A stretch of 64,000 nucleotides of DNA from a virus (taxonomy: Duplodnaviria; Heunggongvirae; Uroviricota; Caudoviricetes). The notes beneath the pieces are model-generated. The model was not told the origin of the DNA, made no database searches, and worked only from the letters and a program-made list of their open reading frames with translations. The DNA lies in IMG/VR virus record IMGVR_UViG_2639762987_000002. One strand, written 5' to 3'. This document shows positions 2 through 64,000 of this stretch, in pieces. The first letter of the stretch is position 1. Each line of letters begins with the position of its first letter. A program made the position numbers and the translations under genes.

Positions 2-1579
2 GATCAATACGGCGATAACTGTGAAGTCTGCGGCGCGACATACAGCCCGACGGAACTGATCGAGCCGAAATCGGTAGTTTCTGGCGCTACGCCGGTAATG
101 CGTGATTCCGAACACTTCTTCTTTGATCTGCCTTCTTTCAGCGAAATGTTGCAGGCATGGACCCGCAGCGGTGCGTTGCAGGAGCAGGTGGCAAACAAAA
201 TGCAGGAGTGGTTTGAATCTGGCCTGCAACAGTGGGATATCTCCCGTGACGCACCTTACTTCGGTTTTGAAATTCCGAACGCACCGGGCAAATACTTCTA
301 CGTCTGGCTGGACGCGCCGATTGGCTACATGGGTTCCTTCAAGAATCTGTGCGACAAACGCGGCGACACTACCAGCTTCGACGAATACTGGAAGAAAGAC
401 TCCACCGCCGAGCTGTACCACTTCATCGGCAAAGATATCGTTTACTTCCACAGCCTGTTCTGGCCTGCCATGCTAGAAGGCAGCAACTTCCGCAAGCCGA
501 CCAACCTGTTTGTTCATGGCTATGTGACGGTGAACGGTGCGAAGATGTCCAAGTCTCGCGGCACCTTTATTAAAGCCAGCACCTGGCTGAATCATTTTGA
601 CGCTGACAGCCTGCGTTACTACTACACTGCGAAACTCTCTTCGCGCATTGATGATATCGATCTCAACCTGGAGGATTTCGTTCAGCGCGTGAATGCCGAT
701 ATCGTGAACAAAGTGGTGAATCTGGCGTCCCGTAACGCGGGCTTTATCAATAAGCGTTTTGACGGTGTGCTGGCAGGCGAACTGGCTGACCCGCAACTGT
801 ACAAAACCTTTACTGATGCCGCTGAAGTGATTGGCGAAGCATGGGAAAGCCGCGAATTTGGTAAAGCTATCCGTGAAATCATGGCACTGGCTGACCTGGC
901 TAACCGCTATGTCGATGAACAGGCTCCGTGGGTGGTGGCGAAGCAGGAAGGTCGCGATGCCGATCTGCAGGCGATTTGCTCTATGGGCATTAACCTGTTC
1001 CGCGTGCTGATGACGTACCTGAAACCGGTACTGCCAAAACTGACTGAACGTGCAGAGGCATTCCTCAATACGGAACTGACCTGGGATGGTATCCAGCAAC
1101 CGCTGTTGGGCCATAAAGTGAATCCGTTCAAAGCTCTGTATAACCGTATCGATATGAAGCAGGTTGAAGCACTGGTGGAAGCGTCTAAAGAAGAAGTCAA
1201 AGCCGCTGCCGCACCGGTAACTGGCCCGCTGGCAGACGATCCGATTCAGGAAACCATCACCTTTGACGACTTCGCCAAAGTTGACCTGCGCGTGGTACTG
1301 ATTGAAAACGCGGAGTTTGTCGAAGGTTCTGACAAACTGCTGCGCCTGACACTGGATCTCGGCGGAGAAAAACGTAATGTCTTCTCAGGCATTCGTTCCG
1401 CTTATCCAGATCCACAGGCACTGATTGGTCGTCACACCATTATGGTGGCTAACCTGGCACCGCGTAAAATGCGCTTCGGTATCTCCGAAGGCATGGTGAT
1501 GGCTGCTGGCCCTGGCGGAAAAGATATCTTCCTGTTAAGCCCGGATGCTGGTGCTAAACCAGGCCACCAAGTTAAGTAA
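2..1579 (+). CDS. metG: methionyl-tRNA synthetase, C-terminal ~526 codons (5'-truncated by window edge)
   Basis: Frame is open from the window start and in frame with the listed ORF 98..1579; translation [18 protein letters not shown]...KMSKSRGTF...GAKPGHQVK matches the class I MetRS zinc-knuckle, KMSKS motif and C-terminal tRNA-binding domain. Confidence 0.95.
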
Positions 1580-48670: not shown

Positions 48671-48713
48671 CTAATACTAGAAAACAATTTGTTTAAAAAA
48701 CAAAGGAAAGCAC

Positions 48714-55615: not shown

Positions 55616-55690
55616 GATGGTGTAGCTCAGCGGTAGAGCAGTTGGCTGTTAACCAACTGGTCGGTGGTTCGAATCCACCCACCATCGCCA
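55616..55690 (+). tRNA. tRNA-Asn (anticodon GTT)
   Basis: Hand-folded cloverleaf: acceptor gatggtg/caccatc, anticodon loop ctGTTaa, T-loop ttcgaat, encoded CCA. Confidence 0.85.
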
Positions 55691-55695
55691 ATTTA

Positions 55696-55782
55696 GGGGA
55701 GTTAGTCCGTAGAGGTAGCGGTGTAGACTGTAAATCTACTGTCATGGCGACTCGGGTGGTTCGACTCCATCACTCCCCACCA
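55696..55782 (+). tRNA. tRNA-Tyr (anticodon GTA), long variable arm
   Basis: Acceptor ggggagt/actcccc, anticodon stem-loop gtaga-ctGTAaa-tctac, 87 nt, encoded CCA. Confidence 0.8.
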
Positions 55783-55786
55783 AATT

Positions 55787-55862
55787 GCCGGTTTAGCTCA
55801 GTTGGTAGAGCGCCTGCCTTGTAAGCAGGATGTCAGCGGTTCGAGTCCGTTAACCGGCACCA
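55787..55862 (+). tRNA. tRNA-Thr (anticodon TGT)
   Basis: Acceptor gccggtt/aaccggc, D-arm gctcagttggtagagc, anticodon loop ctTGTaa, encoded CCA. Confidence 0.85.
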
Positions 55863-56079
55863 ACACAACAGGAAAGAGCATTGAAAACCGCCGAGACTGC
55901 CCTGTTTTAAGCGTAAGTCCGTGCAAACGTCATACAGTGCTCTTTTCGTTGTGGTTGATGCGCAGACTGATGCGCGGAAAGAAATGCCCCAGCGACACAC
56001 GAGGCGAGTTCACACACTGCAATGCAGTCAGTAGCCGGGGTCGCTAAGCCGGAGATCAGTACCGGTAACCACAACAATT

Positions 56080-56166
56080 GGAGAGTAGGGAGCATGGTGC
56101 TCAAGCGGTCTTGAAAACCGTCCCATTGTGCAAACGATGATGGTTCGATTCCATTACTCTCCGCCA
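56080..56166 (+). tRNA. tRNA-Ser (anticodon TGA), long variable arm
   Basis: Acceptor ggagagt/actctcc, anticodon loop ctTGAaa, 87 nt, encoded CCA. Confidence 0.8.
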
Positions 56167-56358: not shown

Positions 56359-57621
56359 TTACTTTGCATAGTCGCCCAATTTTAATATTTCGCGCTTATA
56401 TTCATTAACCATGCTACTGGATTCAGTATAAATTCGATTTAAAAGATTATCGTTATCTTTATTTTCATTTATCTTAATTAGTGCTAATTTATATTCATAG
56501 TCATCAAATGCCACAATTAAATGGTGGCCTGGGATTATATCTTCGTCACTCTTAAAGTATATATCTTCAAGTATGTAATCTAGTTGATTAGATTTTCTTT
56601 TCTCGATGTAATCTTCAGCCATAGCTATTACATCATTCCTGTCATTTAACCTGTTTTTTTCGGAAGGCACATCTTCGTAATGTTGCACGATTGAACAACC
56701 AATAAGGCGTGGGATGTAAACGTCAAAATGAGTAACTCTATCATTCGCGGTTTTAAGTAGTTCCTCAAAGTAGTTTCTTACATGTAAAGGCAACTTCTCA
56801 AAGTAATCATTAATTATAGGAGAACAAGGAGTTTTATAATTCATAAGAACCGACGGTACGAGCTTTGGGTGTCGAAACATCCAGTCCCTTTTAACGTCCG
56901 ATGGAACATAATAACTTTTAATGATATTATCAAAATAATTTATCATTCGAGATTTGAATATTTTGTTGAATCTAAGGTTTATGAATGTATCCAGATAAGG
57001 CATATTTGAATAAGCATCATCAAAAAATATTTCTTCATTGAAGAAATCATATTTATTTAATAAATAAAACAGTTTTTCCGAATTAATATGTTCACAATAA
57101 TCGATTTTTAATCCAAAGATAGCAATGATCAACTTCATCTGAGGTGGGATTTTAAAAATTAATTGTGACACATACGCTCTTTTTTCCTTGAGACATTCCC
57201 CATCAATATAAAATGAACCATCCACATACTCAAATATATTAATAATATGCTTCACATACTGTATTACCTCATGCTGTCTTACCAATGGATAATATAGTCT
57301 ATGTAACTCATCGCTGTTTAAATTAATTTTGTGTTTATCGATAATTTGTTTTGCAAGAAGACATAACTCATCATGTTGATTTAATAAGGAATCAAACCAT
57401 TGTTTAAATGCACTCTTTCGCATTTCGAACAATGATTCAGTTGTTAATTGAAGGGCTGAAAAAGCCGCTTTTGCACTTTTTCTCGCTTCGTAGGCATTCC
57501 ATGCTGTTGCTATAAAAGCAAATGCTGTAGCCAATGTTCCAACAGTTTGACCATTTAAAACAACCCAATCCCAAAAAATGACGGTGAGCAGTAGTATAAT
57601 AATGAAAATTAAAAAAGGCAT
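56359..57621 (-). CDS. AT-rich membrane-anchored protein of unknown function (420 aa)
   Basis: Visibly AT-rich versus neighbours; N-terminal hydrophobic helices (FLIFIIILLLTVIFWDWVV, TLATAFAFIATAW); no catalytic motif recognised. Confidence 0.7.
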   Translation of the reverse strand: MPFLIFIIILLLTVIFWDWVVLNGQTVGTLATAFAFIATAWNAYEARKSAKAAFSALQLTTESLFEMRKSAFKQWFDSLLNQHDELCLLAKQIIDKHKINLNSDELHRLYYPLVRQHEVIQYVKHIINIFEYVDGSFYIDGECLKEKRAYVSQLIFKIPPQMKLIIAIFGLKIDYCEHINSEKLFYLLNKYDFFNEEIFFDDAYSNMPYLDTFINLRFNKIFKSRMINYFDNIIKSYYVPSDVKRDWMFRHPKLVPSVLMNYKTPCSPIINDYFEKLPLHVRNYFEELLKTANDRVTHFDVYIPRLIGCSIVQHYEDVPSEKNRLNDRNDVIAMAEDYIEKRKSNQLDYILEDIYFKSDEDIIPGHHLIVAFDDYEYKLALIKINENKDNDNLLNRIYTESSSMVNEYKREILKLGDYAK

Positions 57622-57795: not shown

Positions 57796-58041
57796 ATGAC
57801 GATCACTATCTACGGACGAGATAACTGCTCATACTGCAAACGTGCGGTCGAGCTGGCGAAGCAACTAAAGGGACATGGCTACGGTGATTATGAGTACATC
57901 GACATCACCACTGCCGGTATCGACAAGGAAAAACTAAGTGAAATTGTTGGTAAACCGGTAGAGACTATCCCCCAAGTGCTGATCGATGGCCAACCGATTG
58001 GCGGATACACAGAACTGGCTGCATACGTCAGCACCCTCTGA
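57796..58041 (+). CDS. grxA: glutaredoxin 1-like protein (81 aa)
   Basis: CSYC active site and GKPVETIPQVLIDGQPIGGYTELAAYV, closely resembling E. coli GrxA from memory. Confidence 0.8.
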   Translation: MTITIYGRDNCSYCKRAVELAKQLKGHGYGDYEYIDITTAGIDKEKLSEIVGKPVETIPQVLIDGQPIGGYTELAAYVSTL

Positions 58042-58046
58042 TTTTA

Positions 58047-58070
58047 ACGGCTCACAGGAGCCGTTTTTAT
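58047..58070 (+). terminator. Rho-independent terminator
   Basis: Hairpin acggctcacaggagccgt followed by ttttt. Confidence 0.75.
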
Positions 58071-58251
58071 TCCCACCAAACTCACTCCCGTTTCCCTTAA
58101 AATTCAAAAAACAACGTCAAAATGATTCCATACCTACTATGTATGGAATCATTGCTGAAAATGAGTTACTTTTACTCTTGATCCTATAAGAATCTATGCC
58201 TAATATACTGTTTACTTATACAGTGCATCGGCGTAACTCGGTGATTGTCAT

Positions 58252-59355
58252 ATGAAAAATAGCTTTGACAGAGCACGCGCTGCGGAGAACACCTCAAAAG
58301 AGGCGATAGAGTATCTCGAAAGAGCATCTCAAATGCAGGCCGTTATGATCTCGCAGGTTAGCAATGACATGAGATTCTCGGACGCATTCATGTTATTCAC
58401 TCGCTTATCTCTGCTGATAACCAGACGTCGGCCAGAGATCGCTGTTCATTGTATTTTGATACATGTTTTGCCGCACATTGCCGATGTAAAAGTAAGTGAC
58501 ATTAATAGGTTCATGGTGAACCAACTGGTCAACCCACTAATACTGGATGGCAAAATTGTTATGGGCCGCCGCGTTTTCTCTCTGATGAAGCAGTTCCTTA
58601 GCTGGTGCGCCTTCCAGGGGATGATAGACGTGTCACCGTTAAACGATATGTCACTAAACAAAGTTGCCGGTGGCGCAAAGCCCACACCTCGCGAGCGGAA
58701 GCTGACCGACGCAGAGGTATGGGTGTTCTGGAATATATGGGACTACTTCAATGTGTGCGCTGGTACAAAATGGGCGGCCAGGCTGTGTCTTGTATCCGCA
58801 AGACGACCTGACGAAGTACTGCGGGCTAAAAAAAGTGAGTTCAATCTTAAGCGTGGGGTTTGGAATCAAGGCAAGAGGAACAAATCTGCCCGTGAGCATT
58901 CGCTGCCTTTAAGCACATTAATGCGCACATGTATTGAAGAGTTGTTCGAATACGGTAAAGGCAGCCAGTGGCTCGTGCCTTCGAATAAAAAAATCGGGAA
59001 AGACCTTCCTATGTCTAAAGTGGCAATAGCCCAGGCATTACGTCGTATCCTGGAACGACCAGAACTGATGGAGCTTGAGCCATTTACACCCCGAGACTTG
59101 CGCCGTACTGCGCGTAGTTACTTCCCAGCATTAGGCATAAGCCAGGAGGTATCACGTAAAATCATGAACCACAGTCTTGAGGGGATAGATCGAGTCTACG
59201 ACCGGCACGATTATATGGACGAGATGCGAGACGCCTTAGAAAGTTTCTCGACGTACATCGCATCAATCGTAGAGCAACCGGATTTAGACGAAATTGACCA
59301 CAAATTTAAGGGAGATCGTCTATCAACAGAGCTTATTCGTGTAAATTTTTCATAG
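58252..59355 (+). CDS. int: tyrosine recombinase / integrase (367 aa)
   Basis: C-terminal catalytic region with conserved R (PRDLRRTARS), HxxR-like and Y (VYDRHDY) residues. Confidence 0.8.
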   Translation: MKNSFDRARAAENTSKEAIEYLERASQMQAVMISQVSNDMRFSDAFMLFTRLSLLITRRRPEIAVHCILIHVLPHIADVKVSDINRFMVNQLVNPLILDGKIVMGRRVFSLMKQFLSWCAFQGMIDVSPLNDMSLNKVAGGAKPTPRERKLTDAEVWVFWNIWDYFNVCAGTKWAARLCLVSARRPDEVLRAKKSEFNLKRGVWNQGKRNKSAREHSLPLSTLMRTCIEELFEYGKGSQWLVPSNKKIGKDLPMSKVAIAQALRRILERPELMELEPFTPRDLRRTARSYFPALGISQEVSRKIMNHSLEGIDRVYDRHDYMDEMRDALESFSTYIASIVEQPDLDEIDHKFKGDRLSTELIRVNFS

Positions 59356-59736
59356 AGACTTTATGGCCTCAACAACCTTTTGTGATGCGCCTTTCTCTTT
59401 ACCGAATCGCTCGTTATATGCAGCAAGAACCTGTTTTTCGTCCTCGTTAAGAGGAGCAGTGCCTTCTTTGTATAAAAATGCTGCGAGTTCGGGTTGGCGT
59501 TCTTCCAGCACCATCATCATAAGACGACTTGGCTCAATACCCAGTGCCAGCGCCAGCGGACGAACCTTATCGATAGGCAAAGGAATTTTGCCGCTTTTAA
59601 TTAAAGAAAGGTTGTTGGCGTTTTTATACCCAATTGTTTTGGCTATCTGGGCCTGGCTCATAGGTGAGGATTCAATCAACCCTGCGATAAAAGCAGCGTA
59701 GCGACTTTCTATAAATTCAATCTTGTTATCAGACAT
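59350..59736 (-). CDS. XRE-family HTH transcriptional regulator, repressor-like (128 aa)
   Basis: HTH SQAQIAKTIGYKNANNLSLIKSGK; divergent from the downstream + strand genes. Confidence 0.7.
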   Translation of the reverse strand: MSDNKIEFIESRYAAFIAGLIESSPMSQAQIAKTIGYKNANNLSLIKSGKIPLPIDKVRPLALALGIEPSRLMMMVLEERQPELAAFLYKEGTAPLNEDEKQVLAAYNERFGKEKGASQKVVEAIKSL

Positions 59737-59987
59737 GGTTACAACCTTTGCGCGTTCAATTCTCTCTGGTAAGTGCTTACCGATATTACATCAAAGGTTA
59801 GGGTTGTAAAGCTATTATCATTTTTTTCGATAGGCACTTAAAAGACCGGTTAAAGGCCATTGCACGGAGAAAAATTAGCCCAAAATAGGTAAGAAAATTA
59901 ACTTGCATATGATATGAATGTATTCAGTATTGATACAAATTTTAGTAGTATTCCTTACCATAGTATAAGTTAGAATGGATTGATTGA

Positions 59988-60200
59988 ATGAACACCACTA
60001 TTTCCAGCCTAATCGCTCTTGAGATCGGACACGTACAGAAATTAGCTGATGAGTGTGTAGCTGACATCCTCACCGATCTACCGAATGAGCAGATTCAGGT
60101 TGGTGTGAATGACACAACTGGCTTTATATTCGAACTTAACAACAAACGCTTCACGCTTCTCAATACCGGCTCCGAGTCTTTAGCCGTCAGAATCTGTTAA
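59988..60200 (+). CDS. hypothetical protein (70 aa)
   Basis: ORF. Confidence 0.4.
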   Translation: MNTTISSLIALEIGHVQKLADECVADILTDLPNEQIQVGVNDTTGFIFELNNKRFTLLNTGSESLAVRIC

Positions 60201-60298
60201 CCCCTCTTCTCCCTGCGCGAATGGCTTAGTTCCCTGTTCGCGCAGTGCTACATTAAACACACTAGTAAATAATTTGTTTTCATAACAAAGGATTAGCC

Positions 60299-62407
60299 AT
60301 GTCTAAAAAACGTTCCATCAAAGAGGTTCAGGACTTCCGTGACAGTGTAAAACGAGTAGTCGCTCTCCTTTCAGGTAAAAACATCCCTGTTGCAGAACGA
60401 GGAGACGACGCTTATGTACGCTATAACGATGATGGAGAGCCAATTCTCGTAAACATCCCATCAATCCCGGATAACGCAACACCGGCATTGATGAATGCTG
60501 TGCGCGGATTTCTCGATCATGAGGTTGCTCACATTTTGTTTACCGATATTCGTGTGTCCAACAAAATGAGAGAAAAAGAACGCGTTCCTTCTTGGTCGCT
60601 ATGGAATGCCTTAGAAGACGTGTTCATCGAGCGAAAAATGGGGCAGGTCTTTAACGGAACAAGACGTAATCTGATGGCAACTCAGCGCCTTATAATCGAA
60701 AAAGTCTTTAAACCAAAGGCTTCAGAGGCTATTGCTTATTGTGGCAAAGATCAGCGCGCGCTTTTTCTAAACTTCTTTCTCTGTCCGGTTGTAAGAGCCT
60801 GGGATGGCCAAGCACCGTTCGTAGATTTCATGGATGAATACTGGCCTGTCATTGAGAAACCAATTTCATTATTAAAAGAACATGGTATCGATGTGGCCGT
60901 GCGTAACATGTCTTGCACCGAGGATTGTGTAAAGGTGGCTGCGACCATAGCTAAGATCCTCAAAGACACTGAAAGTGAAAGCAAAGGTAAGGAGTCAGCT
61001 CCGGGAAAAACTTCCGATCCTTCAGACGCTGACCAGACGGATGCCTCTGGAGAAAACAGTGAAGACAACGAAGATCATGAGACACCCTCAGCGTTAGATA
61101 ATCACAAATCTATCAAATCAGAATCACATAGTAGGTACAAACATGATAATAACGACAGTGATGATTCAGATAATTCTGAATCATCAGAAACAATATTCGA
61201 TGATACAGAAAATGATAAAGAGGTATCAGATTCTGATGCTTCTGATAACGCGGCGTCAGAATCATTAACCGCTGACCACGAAAAAAGAAAAACGACAGAA
61301 GACGGCTCTTCAGATATCCCAACTCCGTCAAAAATGAGTCTGGAAGAGGCTTTAGAGGAGTTGGATAGCATGGAAGATGAAGTCGGAGGCATGACAGAAG
61401 ATGCGCTATCCGAAACGATTAAAAGCGAGTTAACAGAAAGCTCGAAAAGCGAATACAGGCCATACAATCGCTCATACGACTTCATCGGCTCGATTGATCA
61501 GGCAGAAGCCCATATCAAACGGCTTATTAAAACATTCTCCGATATTGATTTGGGAGGATATCCAATCAGCCGCTATCGCATCGTTCCTGAAGGCAACCAG
61601 CTCTTCGACAAATATATTGAAAAGCACCTTTCGTCAGGTGTTTCGTCGACGCTGGCAAAAGACCTGGAACGTGCAATAGCAAGCAGAAACAGAGTTCAGT
61701 TTATACCTGGCCAGCGTCGGGGGCGCATTCATGGTTCAAGTATCTACAGATTAACAATGAATGATGATCGCGTGTTTCGTAAAAAAGAAGAATCTAAAGC
61801 CGTTAACGCCTGTGTTCAACAAGTGATTGATTTATCGGGTTCAATGAGTGGCGAAACGATAAAACTAGCTCTTGCAAGTGCATATACCATCGCCGATGCA
61901 CTTGATCGAATAAATGTTCCCAACATTATCACCGGCTTCACTACATTTGGCAGTCATATGGCAGCAGGAGAACTTAAGGCTATCAAATATGAGTTCTCTC
62001 GCTTTGAATCTTTAATGCTACCTATCATCAAAAATTGGAATGAAAAAGCAAATTCTCGCGAAGTTCGCTCACGTATGGGGTGCGTAGGCTACACATTCCC
62101 ACTTCTTAATAACGTGGATGGTGAAAGCATAGCCAGCCTTGCATCGTTATTTTCCGGTCGCATGGAGGACAGGAAGATCATGCTTGTTCTGAGTGATGGC
62201 GCGCCGTGGGCTGTTGGGAGAGGTTTTGACGCTCATTTGCGTTCAGTTGCGAAGCAAATTGAAACGCAGACTGATATTGATTTGATGGCAATTGGCATCA
62301 TGACTGACGCACCGGAGAGATTTTACTCAAATCATGCCCTGGTAACGAGCGTTGATAGTCTTGGTTCATCTGTAGTTACTGAACTATCTCGTATCATTTT
62401 AAAGTGA
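60299..62407 (+). CDS. vWA-domain protein, CobT-like (702 aa)
   Basis: C-terminal MIDAS motif VIDLSGSMSG; central Asp/Ser/Glu-rich low-complexity linker; motif-1 upstream. Confidence 0.7.
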   Translation: MSKKRSIKEVQDFRDSVKRVVALLSGKNIPVAERGDDAYVRYNDDGEPILVNIPSIPDNATPALMNAVRGFLDHEVAHILFTDIRVSNKMREKERVPSWSLWNALEDVFIERKMGQVFNGTRRNLMATQRLIIEKVFKPKASEAIAYCGKDQRALFLNFFLCPVVRAWDGQAPFVDFMDEYWPVIEKPISLLKEHGIDVAVRNMSCTEDCVKVAATIAKILKDTESESKGKESAPGKTSDPSDADQTDASGENSEDNEDHETPSALDNHKSIKSESHSRYKHDNNDSDDSDNSESSETIFDDTENDKEVSDSDASDNAASESLTADHEKRKTTEDGSSDIPTPSKMSLEEALEELDSMEDEVGGMTEDALSETIKSELTESSKSEYRPYNRSYDFIGSIDQAEAHIKRLIKTFSDIDLGGYPISRYRIVPEGNQLFDKYIEKHLSSGVSSTLAKDLERAIASRNRVQFIPGQRRGRIHGSSIYRLTMNDDRVFRKKEESKAVNACVQQVIDLSGSMSGETIKLALASAYTIADALDRINVPNIITGFTTFGSHMAAGELKAIKYEFSRFESLMLPIIKNWNEKANSREVRSRMGCVGYTFPLLNNVDGESIASLASLFSGRMEDRKIMLVLSDGAPWAVGRGFDAHLRSVAKQIETQTDIDLMAIGIMTDAPERFYSNHALVTSVDSLGSSVVTELSRIILK

Positions 62408-62502
62408 ACAAAACAGCCTTAACGATAAGTAACCACTTACGATAGATAATGATATATTTATATAAGAAGTTGAACGCTCATTAGAAAACAAAGGAAAAAC
62501 GC

Positions 62503-63738
62503 ATGACTACTACTGCACTGCAAAATGAAAAAAATCCTTCTGATTACCTTGTTTGCAAGTGGTGCGGAAAATCATTTCACTATTTTAAGTCCCATGTAGC
62601 CAATGGTAATTGCGAGGGCATTCCTGAGTCAGTAAAAGATGCCGATCCTGACACCGTACTGAAAATGTACACAACACAGTTTCCAGATGAGCCAACGCTA
62701 TCGAAAAAGGCACTTGATGCAATTCAAGCTAAACGTGCCGAGCAAAAAAGCGAAATGGCCAAATCATCTGGCGTGACCAGTAGCCCAGGCTACACAGGCA
62801 CAGTTGAGTACAAGACAGATCTGGTCGCAGCTCACGAACTGCTAAATGTAACGGTGAAAGAACTCGGAACAAAACGTGGGACGCCGCTCATGGTTAGCGT
62901 CAACGTCAATACGCCGTTTCCAGAGTTCGTTCCAGAAGTGAAGAAGGGATACGTATATGGCGACTTCGAACTGATCAAAGACATTTTCATGATGCTTGAA
63001 CTTGGCATACCTGGCTATTTGTGGGGTCATGCAGGAACAGGCAAATCTTCATTGCCTACACAACTATGTGCTTTGCTCAATCGTCCGTTAATCCGTGCCC
63101 AACATACAGCATCAATGGAAGAGGCTCATGTTACGGGACAAATTCTGGCGCGTGATGGCTCTACGTATTTCGAGCCTGGCTTGCTTGCGCTCGCAATGAA
63201 GCATGGCTGGGTTTACCTCGCGGATGAATACGACTTTGCGTTTCCACAGATTCTTGGCGTGTATCAGCCAGTGCTGGAAGGTGAAGCGTTGGTCATCAAA
63301 GAGGCGACTCCAGAATGGCGTCGCATTACTCCGCATGAACGGTTTGCTTTCATTGGCACTGGCAACACGAACGGATCTGGTGATGAAACCGGCTTGTACC
63401 AGGGTACAAACATCCAGAACGCCGCGAACTTTTCGCGTTTTGGCATCGTTTCGAATGTGAAATACATGAGCAAAGAGGCAGAGATCAACATGTTGATAAA
63501 TGCCGGTATCGTGGATGAATACGCAGAAAAGATGGTTAAGTTTGCCGGTATCGTTCGCGATGGATACGAAGAACACCTTATCAGTCAGCCAATTGGCCCT
63601 CGTGAACTTTTGTTGTCGGCCAAGATTGGAATGATGCGAGGCGACTTTGTGACAGGTATTGAGCGTTCTTTCATTAACAAACTCCCTTCAGCTTCTGCAC
63701 AAGCGGCTCGTGAAGTTGTTCAAAAAATATTTGGTTAA
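62503..63738 (+). CDS. AAA+ ATPase, CobS/MoxR-like (411 aa)
   Basis: Walker A GHAGTGKSS, Walker B VYLADEYD; paired with the upstream vWA protein. Confidence 0.7.
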   Translation: MTTTALQNEKNPSDYLVCKWCGKSFHYFKSHVANGNCEGIPESVKDADPDTVLKMYTTQFPDEPTLSKKALDAIQAKRAEQKSEMAKSSGVTSSPGYTGTVEYKTDLVAAHELLNVTVKELGTKRGTPLMVSVNVNTPFPEFVPEVKKGYVYGDFELIKDIFMMLELGIPGYLWGHAGTGKSSLPTQLCALLNRPLIRAQHTASMEEAHVTGQILARDGSTYFEPGLLALAMKHGWVYLADEYDFAFPQILGVYQPVLEGEALVIKEATPEWRRITPHERFAFIGTGNTNGSGDETGLYQGTNIQNAANFSRFGIVSNVKYMSKEAEINMLINAGIVDEYAEKMVKFAGIVRDGYEEHLISQPIGPRELLLSAKIGMMRGDFVTGIERSFINKLPSASAQAAREVVQKIFG

Positions 63739-63740
63739 TC

Positions 63741-63944
63741 GTGCGTAAAGGATGTTTCGGCTCTCTTATCGCTGCTTCTGAAACTGGTAAGGCTTGTCTG
63801 GTGTGTCCAGACAAGCCCGATTGTCACCAATCAGCAAAAGAAGTTGCGATTTCGATGCATGGGAAGTTCGTAGGCTTCCCCAATGACAAAATCAAAAAAA
63901 CCAGAAAGGTAAAAACACATGAAGGCACTGATGGTTCGAACTGA
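63741..63944 (+). CDS. small Cys-containing hypothetical protein (67 aa)
   Basis: ORF 2 nt after the AAA gene stop. Confidence 0.35.
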   Translation: MRKGCFGSLIAASETGKACLVCPDKPDCHQSAKEVAISMHGKFVGFPNDKIKKTRKVKTHEGTDGSN

Positions 63945-64000
63945 CTTCTCACTTGGGGAGTCGGCTCTAAAAGCAGAAAACGCGGTGAAGATTGCCAGAG

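What the first reader, a model, noticed from the sequence alone, without database searches (positions are those of the whole stretch)
60299..63738. vWA plus AAA+ (CobT/CobS-like) pair with a long acidic Ser/Asp-rich linker
A MIDAS-containing vWA protein and a MoxR-like AAA+ ATPase are adjacent, each preceded by motif 1. The vWA protein carries a ~150-aa Asp/Ser/Glu-rich low-complexity segment (~61000-61450). Such pairs recur in large phages without an established role; chaperone-like remodelling is one possibility.
Basis: partly seen in the sequence, partly recalled or inferred. Interest (0 to 1): 0.45.

Follow-up and report, generated by a model that had tools for sequence, protein, structure and literature searches.

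The report
Phage-plasmid CobT/CobS-like motor pair
Two adjacent genes of an E. coli phage-plasmid encode a virus-type copy of the CobS/CobT ATP-driven motor that has no cobalt-chelatase partner, keeps an intact protease-like zinc site and sits among the DNA-replication genes, so it is a known gene pair whose usual "vitamin B12" label is almost certainly wrong and whose real job is still open.

Summary
ORF 60299-62407 (702 aa) is a CobT-like protein with a complete MIDAS vWA domain. ORF 62503-63738 (411 aa) is a CobS-like AAA+ ATPase with all ATPase motifs. A 166-aa acidic Ser/Asp/Glu linker lies at 60956-61453. The window is an SSU5-type phage-plasmid, 98% identical to Escherichia phage Cyrano. 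The pair occurs on plasmids in 219 of 5,426 complete E. coli genomes. It is the already described phage "cobST" cluster. It is not a cobaltochelatase here: scores are far below the CobS/CobT equivalog cut-offs, and a near-identical complete genome has no CobN or other cob gene. Two features were missed. The CobT-like N-domain is an M48-like zincin whose HExxH...E motif is invariant in 126/126 representatives and absent from the solved cellular CobT. The CobS-like protein has an extra N-terminal C2HC zinc finger related by sequence to Ros/MucR. The acidic linker is an inherited, fast-evolving family trait. The palindrome ("motif 1") precedes cobT but not cobS. The genes lie in the early/replication block, directly upstream of dnaE. 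Best reading: an ATP-driven remodeller/protease with an unknown client. Known object, unresolved function, moderate interest.

The parts
59350..59736 (-). HTH repressor-like gene (128 aa), divergent from the rightward block that carries cobT/cobS. Context, not part of the pair.
   Evidence: Pfam HTH_19 (weak) and phrog_8 'transcriptional regulator'. Annotated 'putative repressor' in Cyrano. The same integrase + HTH arrangement lies upstream of the CobT-like gene in divergent metagenomic relatives.
59988..60200 (+). Small conserved ORF (70 aa), first gene of the rightward block.
   Evidence: phrog_2627, 9e-40, unknown function. Annotated as a hypothetical protein in Cyrano.
60213..60245 (+). 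G+C-rich hairpin (stem of about 10-12 bp, no U-tract) between the small ORF and cobT.
   Evidence: RNA fold of 60198-60302: -22.8 kcal/mol, z = -2.3 against shuffles. Sequence. Function not tested.
60267..60279 (+). Palindromic operator-like motif (AAATAATTTGTTT, one mismatch to AAACAANTTGTTT), 20 nt before the cobT ATG.
   Evidence: 12 sites in the window against 0.46 expected. The same spacing occurs before the helicase ATG (48682-48694). Both sites are conserved in SSU5 and Cyrano.
60299..62407 (+). CobT-like gene (702 aa): zincin N-domain, acidic linker, middle/'shaft' segment, vWA-MIDAS domain.
   Evidence: Pfam CobT + CobT_C. TIGR01651 scores 66.6 bits against a cut-off of 759. PDB CobT chains 21vt/9uka match at E 3e-16 and 8e-14. 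phrog_1576.
60299..60955 (+). N-domain (aa 1-219): M48-like gluzincin fold with HEVAH (nt 60518-60532) and E106-D107...E111 (nt 60614-60631).
60956..61453 (+). Acidic Ser/Asp/Glu-rich segment (aa 220-385). Its last ~42 aa (nt 61328-61453) form a conserved acidic stretch. The rest (nt 60956-61327) is low-complexity and hypervariable.
   Evidence: Composition and net charge -36. Identity is 36% here against 76-77% in the flanking domains, and length ranges 151-255 aa in 119 SSU5-type homologues. It aligns with the acidic linker of cellular CobT, which is disordered in cryo-EM.
61454..61771 (+). Middle segment (aa 386-491). By position it is the counterpart of the CobT 'shaft' and helical extension that enter the CobS ring.
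   Evidence: 77% identity among SSU5-type homologues. It aligns to residues ~300-405 of PDB 9uka_G. The correspondence is inferred and was not modelled.
61772..62404 (+). vWA domain with complete MIDAS: D511-x-S513-x-S515 (nt 61829-61843), N605 (62111-62113), D633 (62195-62197).
   Evidence: Pfam CobT_C 3e-83. These columns are invariant in phage homologues. They are equivalent to D422/S424/S426/N518/D546 of solved CobT.
62482..62495 (+). Half-site plus Shine-Dalgarno (TAGAAAACAAAGGA) before cobS. No full palindrome.
62503..63738 (+). CobS-like AAA+ ATPase gene (411 aa).
   Evidence: Pfam AAA_5. TIGR01650 scores 84.8 bits against a cut-off of 558.55. PDB CobS 9ujv matches at E 2e-25 over aa 141-411. 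phrog_249.
62539..62712 (+). N-terminal extension with a C2HC zinc-finger motif (C18, C21, H31, C37; nt 62548-62613) and a Y..FP.(A/E)P.LS motif. Absent from cellular CobS.
   Evidence: C18, C21, H31, Y56 and S67 are invariant in 81 homologues. 106 of the 120 top hits carry the motif. The fourth ligand switches from His to Cys in the enterobacterial clade. A profile of 40 N-termini has Ros87 (PDB 2JSP) as its top PDB hit, E 4.5e-4. AF2 gives pLDDT >90 for aa 21-60, with a beta-beta-alpha start.
62923..63735 (+). AAA+ module (aa 141-411): Walker A 63025-63048, Walker B 63217-63234, sensor-1 N288, Arg finger R312, sensor-2 R367.
   Evidence: Alignment to solved CobS. Invariant columns. Motif assignment in CobS. 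Coordinates checked.
63741..63944 (+). Small Cys-rich ORF (67 aa) between cobS and dnaE. Conserved in SSU5-type elements.
   Evidence: phrog_6337, 3e-45. SSU5_051 occupies the same place.
63919..64000 (+). Start of dnaE (DNA polymerase III alpha), which runs off the window. Context.
   Evidence: The translation is identical to the N-terminus of Cyrano CYRAN_49. The Cyrano protein has PHP, DNA_pol3_alpha, finger and HHH_6 domains.

Best explanation
The two genes encode the virus-type version of the CobS-CobT motor, used for something other than cobalt insertion. Shown: the CobS-like protein has every ATPase motif of solved CobS. The CobT-like protein has the same four-part build as solved CobT (M48-like N-domain, disordered acidic linker, middle segment, vWA with all five MIDAS residues). 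The replicon has no CobN. The N-domain keeps an invariant HExxH...E that the solved cellular CobT lacks. The ATPase carries an extra N-terminal Zn-finger module. The genes sit in the early/replication block directly upstream of dnaE, behind an operator-like palindrome shared with the helicase gene. Inferred by analogy with the cryo-EM model of CobSTN: the ATPase forms a hexameric ring and the middle segment of the CobT-like protein enters the ring as a shaft. A protein client would be held where CobN sits in the chelatase, between the vWA-MIDAS face and the beta-sheet and cleft of the zincin domain. ATP turnover would rotate or pull the adaptor. The zincin site would then cut, or possibly metal-load, the client. 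The Zn finger and the acidic linker would serve client or partner recruitment. Inferred from gene position only: the client belongs to the early programme, meaning a phage or host replication or nucleoid protein, or an early host-takeover target. In short, it works like a split AAA+ protease/remodeller (FtsH-like logic with a MIDAS adaptor), not like a B12 enzyme.
Confidence: 0.42

Rival explanations
1. Metal-cofactor insertion or activation chaperone for a phage metalloenzyme. The pair would work like NorQ/NorD (iron into NorB), CoxD/CoxE, CbbQ/CbbO or the chelatase motor itself. It would load or repair the metal site of a co-encoded enzyme such as NrdB (di-iron), the PHP domain of DnaE or the epsilon-like exonuclease. 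The HExxH site would act as a metal-holding site rather than a protease.
For: The whole CobS/BchI/MoxR-vWA group is known for metal-centre maturation (background summarised). In the holoenzyme the MIDAS lies next to the CobN region and a metal-related role is suggested for it. The replicon encodes NrdAB, DnaE with a PHP domain and an epsilon-like exonuclease. The pair lies directly upstream of dnaE in many genomes.
Against: An invariant HExxH plus a Glu on the next helix in an M48-like fold is the signature of a peptidase, not of known metallochaperones. CobS-like genes also occur in phages with other polymerase types, including ICP2, T4-like cyanophages and Kayvirus, so there is no strict link to DnaE. 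No client was identified.
Confidence: 0.2
2. Virion-assembly chaperone plus processing protease. The pair would help fold and cut structural proteins. This was proposed for the MoxR-vWA-metallopeptidase pair of T4-like jumbo phages and shown for a MoxR-vWA system in tail development of the archaeal virus ATV.
For: Proposal and precedent in Iyer et al. 2021. phrog_459 'peptidase' of T4-like phages matches the HExxH region.
Against: Here the genes lie about 19 kb from the end of the structural block (15.6-41.6 kb of the window). They sit inside the block of helicase, primase, ligase, DnaE, SSB and recombinase, behind the lysogeny-switch region. In ICP2 they also sit next to replication genes. 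The proposal itself was an inference without experiments.
Confidence: 0.15
3. Host-takeover or counter-defence device. The motor-protease would remove a host protein, such as a defence factor or a nucleoid or replication protein. The hypervariable, strongly acidic linker would act as a DNA mimic or decoy and evolve in an arms race.
For: The linker is far more variable than the rest of the protein: 36% vs 76% identity, lengths 151-255 aa, net charge -22 to -79. The genes have an early position behind the repressor region. The Zn finger could be a target-recognition module.
Against: Disordered linkers evolve fast without any arms race. The cellular enzyme has the same acidic linker, so it is ancestral. 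There were no meaningful PADLOC hits. The folded domains are well conserved, not diversifying.
Confidence: 0.12
4. True auxiliary cobaltochelatase. Viral CobS/CobT would dock onto the host's CobN to raise vitamin B12 synthesis during infection. This is the usual annotation and the proposal of Liu et al. 2021.
For: Clear homology to CobS/CobT with all motor motifs. Some hosts of related phages (Rhizobium, Pseudomonas, Roseobacter, haloarchaea, cyanobacteria) do have CobN or ChlH.
Against: No cobN or any other cob gene on the replicon. This element lives in E. coli, which by general knowledge lacks CobN and de novo corrin synthesis. Salmonella and Klebsiella use the anaerobic CbiK route. Scores are far below the equivalog cut-offs. 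The catalytic zincin motif is retained and an extra Zn finger is present, both absent from the solved enzyme. The phage RNR is class Ia, so it has no obvious B12 demand. NCBI itself names the proteins 'CobT-related protein' and 'AAA family ATPase'.
Confidence: 0.04

Closest known systems
Aerobic cobaltochelatase motor CobS-CobT of CobNST (PDB 9UJV, 9UKA, 21VT, 21VU; Zhou et al., bioRxiv 10.64898/2026.07.21.739949)
   Same: Same two-gene logic and the same domain order. The AAA+ protein has identical Walker A/B, sensor-1, Arg-finger and sensor-2 positions. The adaptor has an M48-like N-domain, a disordered acidic linker, a middle segment and a vWA domain with the five MIDAS residues.
   Different: About 25-30% identity, with scores 7-11 times below the equivalog cut-offs. 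No CobN or cob pathway. The N-domain keeps HExxH...E, which the solved CobT lacks. The ATPase has a ~100-aa N-terminal extension with a Zn finger. The linker is longer (about 125-165 aa here against ~90). The genes are embedded in a replication module.
Phage 'cobST' cluster, equivalent to the MoxR-vWA pair with N-terminal metallopeptidase of T4-like jumbo and cyanophages (Liu et al. 2021, PMC8651126; Iyer et al. 2021, PMC7824862)
   Same: The same family of adjacent genes in tailed viruses. Its function is not established experimentally. The peptidase-like N-domain has already been noted.
   Different: Cyanophage and Kayvirus CobS-like proteins align only from about aa 115-160 onward and so lack the Zn-finger extension. 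The published proposals (B12 supply; virion assembly) do not fit the host or the gene position of this element.
Mg-chelatase BchI/BchD (ChlI/ChlD)
   Same: An AAA+ ring plus an adaptor with an acidic linker and a C-terminal integrin-I/vWA MIDAS domain. ATP-driven action on a large third subunit.
   Different: The BchD N-domain is AAA+-like, not zincin-like. It needs BchH. The comparison with BchD rests on general knowledge and on the background, not on a test here.
MoxR-vWA chaperone pairs (RavA-ViaA, NorQ-NorD, CbbQ-CbbO, CoxD-CoxE) and midasin/Rea1
   Same: An AAA_5/CbbQ_C-type ATPase partnered with a MIDAS domain that grips a client. PDB hits to midasin, CbbQ and NorQ.
   Different: Those systems have identified clients (NorB, Rubisco, ribosome-assembly factors). 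None has a zincin domain on the vWA protein or a Ros-like finger on the ATPase.
M48/M56 gluzincin peptidases (Ste24/ZMPSTE24, BepA, BlaR1). Functional analogues: FtsH (AAA+ fused to HExxH) and Spartan with p97
Ros/MucR prokaryotic C2H2 zinc finger (Ros87, PDB 2JSP)
   Same: C-x2-C-x9-H-x4-H spacing (x5-C in the enterobacterial clade), followed by a helix with a conserved Tyr and an aromatic-Pro motif. Top PDB profile hit at E 4.5e-4. Weak Pfam ROS_MUCR hits in 6/19 members.
   Different: Fused to an AAA+ ATPase instead of being a stand-alone DNA-binding regulator. The core is slightly acidic. The fold searches gave no match.

Membership tests
Aerobic cobaltochelatase CobS (TIGR01650 equivalog) | Whole-protein score at or above the curated equivalog cut-off | tested here: not met
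   84.8 bits against a cut-off of 558.55.
Aerobic cobaltochelatase CobS | AAA+ motifs of solved CobS (Walker A/B, sensor-1 N, Arg finger, sensor-2 R) | tested here: met
   G175-S182, D241-E242, N288, R312 and R367 align to G71-S78, D141-E142, N186, R210 and R271. They are invariant in homologues.
Aerobic cobaltochelatase CobT (TIGR01651 equivalog) | Whole-protein score at or above the curated equivalog cut-off | tested here: not met
   66.6 bits against a cut-off of 759.05.
Aerobic cobaltochelatase CobT | Domain order: M48C-like N-domain, disordered linker, shaft/extension, vWA with MIDAS | tested here: met
Aerobic cobaltochelatase CobNST holoenzyme | A CobN subunit available, on the replicon or in the host | tested here: not met
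   Replicon: no CobN-like gene among the 126 annotated features of the 98%-identical phage Cyrano, and the three >1,000-aa window ORFs are tail proteins. Host: absence of CobN from E. coli rests on general knowledge and could not be tested with these tools.
Aerobic cobaltochelatase CobNST holoenzyme | Embedded in, or accompanied by, a cobalamin pathway | tested here: not met
   No other cob or cbi gene on the replicon. The neighbours are replication and recombination genes.
Aerobic cobaltochelatase CobNST holoenzyme | Cobalt insertion into hydrogenobyrinic acid a,c-diamide | not testable with these tools
   Needs an enzyme assay or complementation.
MoxR/AAA_5-vWA chaperone pair (generic) | Adjacent, co-oriented AAA+ gene of the MoxR/dynein-midasin/chelatase group and a vWA-MIDAS gene | tested here: met
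   95-nt gap and the same strand. AAA_5 and CbbQ_C hits and PDB hits to midasin, CbbQ and NorQ. vWA-MIDAS.
Phage MoxR-vWA-metallopeptidase pair (Iyer et al. 2021) | vWA protein fused to an N-terminal metallopeptidase domain | tested here: met
   Invariant HExxH...E, zincin-like model, phrog_459 'peptidase' match at aa 72-128.
Phage MoxR-vWA-metallopeptidase pair (Iyer et al. 2021) | Role in virion assembly (the proposed function) | tested here: inconclusive
   The gene position argues against it (replication block). No expression or interaction data.
Gluzincin metallopeptidase | HExxH on a helix plus a downstream Glu ligand, zincin fold | tested here: met
Gluzincin metallopeptidase | Zinc binding and peptide-bond hydrolysis | not testable with these tools
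   Needs biochemistry.
Ros/MucR zinc-finger domain | C-x2-C-x9-H-x3-5-H(C) ligand spacing with conserved ligands | tested here: met
   C18, C21 and H31 invariant in 81 sequences. The fourth ligand is H (x4) or C (x5) depending on clade.
Ros/MucR zinc-finger domain | Significant sequence or fold similarity to Ros87/MucR | tested here: inconclusive
Ros/MucR zinc-finger domain | Basic DNA-binding surface or DNA binding | tested here: not met
   Mean net charge of the finger core is -1.7, and of the next 25 aa +1.3. DNA binding itself was not tested.

The most novel reading that the evidence does not exclude
The phage-type CobS/CobT pair is an active, split AAA+ protease. A hexameric motor drives a MIDAS-plus-zincin adaptor that captures and cuts a specific protein of the replication or early-takeover programme, with the Ros-like Zn finger acting as a targeting module. 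It would also represent the ancestral state from which the cobaltochelatase motor arose by loss of the HExxH site and capture of CobN. If so, the 'cobS' gene that is core to marine cyanophages and hundreds of other phages has been misread as a B12 gene for two decades.
Probability: 0.2. Interest if true: 0.75.

Novelty: already known. Interest (0 to 1): 0.42.

Why it matters
The cobS/cobT genes of phages are routinely counted as auxiliary metabolic genes for vitamin B12 in viromics. They are core genes of T4-like cyanophages, yet no experiment has shown what they do. This window places a full member of the family in a genetically tractable setting: an E. coli phage-plasmid, one close relative of which was propagated on K-12 MG1655. 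The host has no CobN, so the B12 reading can be excluded cleanly. The conserved HExxH, Walker, MIDAS and Cys/His residues give immediate point-mutant tests. If the protease-motor reading is right, it would change a widespread annotation. It would add a new kind of AAA+-coupled protease to phage biology. It would also suggest how the class I chelatase motor evolved. If it is wrong, the pair remains an ordinary, already catalogued gene pair of unknown function.

Tried and rejected
(1) The third homologous-protein search, with the N-domain profile, returned only 26 proteins, mostly fragments of close relatives. It added nothing. The diverse set came from the representatives search.

(3) PADLOC gave only a negligible DrmE hit for the CobT-like protein (16 bits) and none for the CobS-like protein. 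I do not read the pair as part of a known defence system.

(4) The promoter and terminator consensus scan of 59300-64000 found no more sites than shuffles do. The direct and inverted repeats inside the two genes are short two-copy matches at chance level.

(5) The 9-mer AACAAAGGA before both genes is mostly the ribosome-binding site. It has 3 copies, and 5 of 100 shuffles reach that count. I rejected it as 'motif 1' in favour of the palindrome.

(6) The neighbourhoods of the CobS-like genes in Staphylococcus phage ISP and Prochlorococcus phage P-SSM2 are mostly hypothetical proteins and gave no functional clue.

(7) Literature searches for functional work on SSU5/pHCM2 cobT/cobS or on phage cobST found annotation-level statements only.

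(8) I considered that the window might be a prophage next to the host metG. I rejected this because Cyrano itself encodes the MetRS and all E. coli matches of the pair are on plasmids.

(9) The ORFs on the opposite strand inside the linker (for example 61102-61485) were taken as by-products of the low-complexity repeat and not pursued.

Full report
WHAT THE WINDOW IS. Megablast of 58000-64000 finds 98% identity over 98% of the query to Escherichia phage Cyrano (OV696614). It finds 96-98% to phages CMS-2020a and PhiR41_1, and about 75% over the cobT-cobS-dnaE part to Salmonella phage SSU5. The window carries a siphovirus structural block, ParA, a DnaB helicase, primase, ligase, four tRNAs, glutaredoxin and an integrase. 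It is therefore an SSU5-type phage-plasmid. The 3.4-kb stretch of the finding occurs at >=95% identity in 219 of 5,426 complete E. coli genomes. It is always on plasmids of about 106-114 kb and never on a chromosome. PGAP names the products 'cobaltochelatase CobT-related protein' and 'AAA family ATPase'.

CHECK OF THE OBSERVATION. The two ORFs have exactly the stated limits.
- ORF1 (702 aa) matches Pfam CobT (aa 9-294) and CobT_C/vWA (aa 492-701, 3e-83).
- ORF2 (411 aa) matches AAA_5.
- Against solved structures, ORF2 aligns over aa 141-411 to cobaltochelatase CobS (9UJV, 2e-25).
- ORF1 aligns to CobT (21VT and 9UKA_G, 3e-16 and 8e-14).
- All ATPase motifs defined in the CobS structure paper have conserved counterparts: Walker A, Walker B, sensor-1 N186, R-finger R210 and sensor-2 R271 correspond to G175-S182, D241-E242, N288, R312 and R367.
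- The five MIDAS residues of CobT (D422, S424, S426, N518, D546) correspond to D511, S513, S515, N605 and D633. These are invariant across phage homologues.
- The acidic segment spans aa 220-385 (nt 60956-61453). It has 32 Ser, 26 Glu and 25 Asp of 166 residues, and net charge -36.

'MOTIF 1'. The only clearly non-random upstream element is the palindrome AAACAANTTGTTT.
- It has 12 sites with <=1 mismatch against 0.46 expected, and no shuffle reaches 12.
- A copy lies 20 nt before the cobT ATG and another 20 nt before the helicase ATG. Both share a longer context, ACTAGWAAAYAATTTGTTT...AACAAAGGA.
- Both placements are conserved in SSU5 and Cyrano.
- cobS is preceded only by a half-site merged with its Shine-Dalgarno sequence.

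NOT A COBALTOCHELATASE HERE.
- The NCBIfam equivalog models score 84.8 bits (cut-off 558.55) for CobS and 66.6 bits (cut-off 759.05) for CobT.
- The complete genome of the 98%-identical phage Cyrano has no CobN and no other cob gene.
- Its ribonucleotide reductase is the B12-independent class Ia NrdAB.
- The three >1,000-aa ORFs of the window are the tape measure, gpJ and a tail fibre.
- By established knowledge, E. coli has no CobN and makes no corrin ring de novo. This was not tested here.
- Relatives of the ATPase are also found in 234 Staphylococcus and 68 Listeria phage records and in Vibrio cholerae phage ICP2.
The published idea that viral CobST hijacks the host CobN cannot apply to this element.

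- The N-domain of the CobT-like protein carries HEVAH (aa 74-78) followed by N103..E106-D107..E111.
- A search of 1.84 billion cluster representatives with aa 1-225 gave 1,108 hits at E<=1e-3. All 126 full-length proteins among the best 150 have H-E-x-x-H, and D73, H74, E75, H78, E106, D107 and E111 are invariant.
- The motif is also kept in ICP2, Roseobacter phage CRP-810, Gordonia phage Jams and Rhizobium phage RHEph10. Pseudomonas phage nickie has a degenerate SEISK.
- An AlphaFold2 model of the domain is confident (pLDDT 93.9, pTM 0.89). Its topology is a helix, three strands, the HExxH helix and the Glu-bearing helix.
- The structure preprint on the cellular enzyme independently calls CobT_N 'M48C-like'.
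- In that solved CobT_N, the stretch aligned to DHEVAHILFTD reads GDSMALRQARHN, so the catalytic motif is gone.
The virus-type protein therefore keeps what looks like an active gluzincin site, and the chelatase subunit does not. Iyer et al. 2021 already described the counterpart in T4-like jumbo phages as a MoxR-vWA pair with an N-terminal metallopeptidase, so this point is not new to the literature.

- The CobS-like protein has about 100 extra N-terminal residues compared with cellular CobS.
- In 106 of the 120 best homologues this extension carries C-x2-C-x9-H followed by a fourth ligand. The fourth ligand is His after four residues in most lineages and Cys after five in the enterobacterial clade that includes this window (C18, C21, H31, C37). 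A Y...FP.AP.LS motif follows.
- A profile of 40 such N-termini has Ros87, the prokaryotic C2H2 finger (2JSP), as its best PDB hit at E 4.5e-4. The alignment runs through the second helix.
- Pfam ROS_MUCR hits are weak.
- The AF2 model is confident for aa 21-60, but the fold searches returned nothing.
- The finger core is slightly acidic.
I therefore treat it as a real Zn-binding module of Ros/MucR ancestry whose partner, DNA or protein, is open. Cyanophage, Staphylococcus and Listeria phage homologues align only from about aa 115-160 onward and lack it.

THE ACIDIC LINKER. It aligns with the acidic linker of cellular CobT, which is about 90 residues long and disordered in all cryo-EM maps. Among 119 SSU5-type homologues the folded parts are 76-77% identical to the window protein. 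The linker is 36% identical and ranges from 151 to 255 residues in 16 different lengths, with net charge -22 to -79. Its last ~42 residues are conserved. It is an inherited flexible tether that evolves fast. It is not a peculiarity of this gene.

CONTEXT.
- In Cyrano and SSU5 the order is helicase, primase, ligase, tRNAs, (integrase and HTH repressor in the Cyrano type), small ORF, cobT, cobS, small Cys-rich ORF, dnaE, UvsY-like, gp32-like SSB, exonuclease, RecA.
- dnaE starts at 63919 in the window.
- The same order is found in Rhizobium phage RHEph10, Pseudomonas phage nickie and metagenomic contigs whose CobS-like proteins are only 45-48% identical. In these the integrase and HTH genes again lie just upstream.
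- This is mostly one inherited backbone, so it counts as few independent observations.
- In the unrelated podovirus ICP2 the pair again lies next to primase, helicase and polymerase.
- The shared operator-like palindrome suggests co-regulation of cobT with the helicase, parA and other operons.

MECHANISM. The cryo-EM work on CobSTN gives the template.
- CobS forms a hexameric ring.
- A 'shaft' preceding the vWA domain of CobT enters the ring.
- CobT_N binds the small subdomain of CobS.
All motor parts are conserved in the window proteins, CobN is absent and the zincin site is intact. The most economical inference is that another protein occupies the CobN position. It would be gripped by the MIDAS face and perhaps by the Zn finger, and it would be remodelled and cut by the zincin site under ATP control. 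From gene position I place the client in the early/replication programme (confidence 0.42 for the whole statement). The domain architecture and motifs are shown. Complex formation, the shaft, proteolysis and the client are inferred.

Rivals:
- a metal-centre maturation chaperone for NrdB, DnaE-PHP or a similar enzyme (0.2);
- the virion-assembly chaperone-protease of Iyer et al. (0.15);
- a host-takeover or counter-defence protease with a decoy linker (0.12);
- a true cobaltochelatase helper (0.04).

COMPARISON AND NOVELTY. The pair works like, and descends from the same stock as, the CobS-CobT motor. It fails the membership tests for cobaltochelatase: equivalog scores, CobN and pathway. It is a member of the generic MoxR/AAA_5-vWA class and of the phage 'cobST' or MoxR-vWA-metallopeptidase group already in the literature, in PHROGs (phrog_1576, phrog_249) and in RefSeq. 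The object is therefore already known. Two things appear under-described: the universal retention of the zincin motif against its loss in the solved chelatase subunit, and the Ros-like finger on the ATPase of the SSU5/Rhizobium/nickie-type lineage. I found no experimental work on function.

VERDICT. A real, correctly delimited and already catalogued gene pair. The cobalamin label is almost certainly wrong for it, and its function is open. Interest is 0.42. This reflects mainly that it offers a tractable E. coli system for the old question of what phage cobS/cobT genes do.

Noticed in passing
window 1664, 1715, 3155, 4339, 4823, 5726, 6490, 15605, 15630, 45752, 48682, 60267 (13-nt sites): The palindrome AAACAANTTGTTT occurs 12 times (0.46 expected). 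Most copies lie 18-41 nt upstream of start codons, before parA, the DnaB helicase, cobT, the terminase block and several small early ORFs. The helicase and cobT sites are conserved in SSU5 and Cyrano. It is a candidate operator of a dimeric regulator of the phage-plasmid. In the mRNA its 3' half can also pair with the AACAAA just before the Shine-Dalgarno sequence.
   Followed up: partly
window 98-1579 (+), ORF runs off the window start: The C-terminal two thirds of a methionyl-tRNA synthetase. It is phage-encoded, not host DNA: Cyrano annotates a complete MetRS (CYRAN_100) at the corresponding place.
   Followed up: partly
window 55616-56166 (+): A cluster of four tRNA genes (Asn-GTT, Tyr-GTA, Thr-TGT, Ser-TGA). 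Cyrano has Asn, Thr and Ser and SSU5 only Asn at this place, so the tRNA set varies between close relatives.
   Followed up: no
window 56359-57621 (-): A 420-aa ORF in the lowest-GC stretch of the window (36%). It starts with a hydrophobic stretch (not analysed). It has no Pfam, NCBIfam or PADLOC hit and matches phrog_18168 (unknown function). This stretch lies outside the aligned part of Cyrano, whose alignment starts at window 58104. It is possibly a variable accessory (moron) gene.
   Followed up: partly
window 58252-59355 (+) and 59350-59736 (-): A tyrosine integrase and an HTH repressor-like gene sit immediately upstream of the cobT block in a plasmid-borne element. SSU5 lacks them at this place. 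Distant metagenomic relatives (L010, L011) have the same integrase + HTH arrangement in front of their CobT-like gene.
   Followed up: partly
window 60213-60245 (+): A G+C-rich hairpin (stem of about 10-12 bp) without a U-tract, between the small ORF 59988-60200 and cobT. The fold energy is -22.8 kcal/mol, z = -2.3. Its role is unknown; it could be an attenuator, a processing site or a protein-binding site.
   Followed up: partly
window 63741-63944 (+): A conserved 67-aa Cys-rich ORF (C5, C19, C22, C28; phrog_6337) lies between cobS and dnaE and overlaps the dnaE start by 26 nt. In Rhizobium phage RHEph10 and in contig L010 the same slot holds a ~210-224-aa protein with a weak sigma-70 region-2 hit.
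   Followed up: no
L001 26125-28464 (Cyrano, downstream of the window): The RecA-like recombinase of the Cyrano-type element is 779 aa because it carries an intein with a LAGLIDADG endonuclease. SSU5 has an uninterrupted 358-aa recombinase.
   Followed up: no
A4 profile against PDB: The segment around N103-E111 of the CobT-like N-domain (LNxxEDxFIE...G..xN) gave a weak match (E 0.015) to the anti-CRISPR AcrIIA26 (9ZQ6_B). It is probably chance but was not examined.
   Followed up: no
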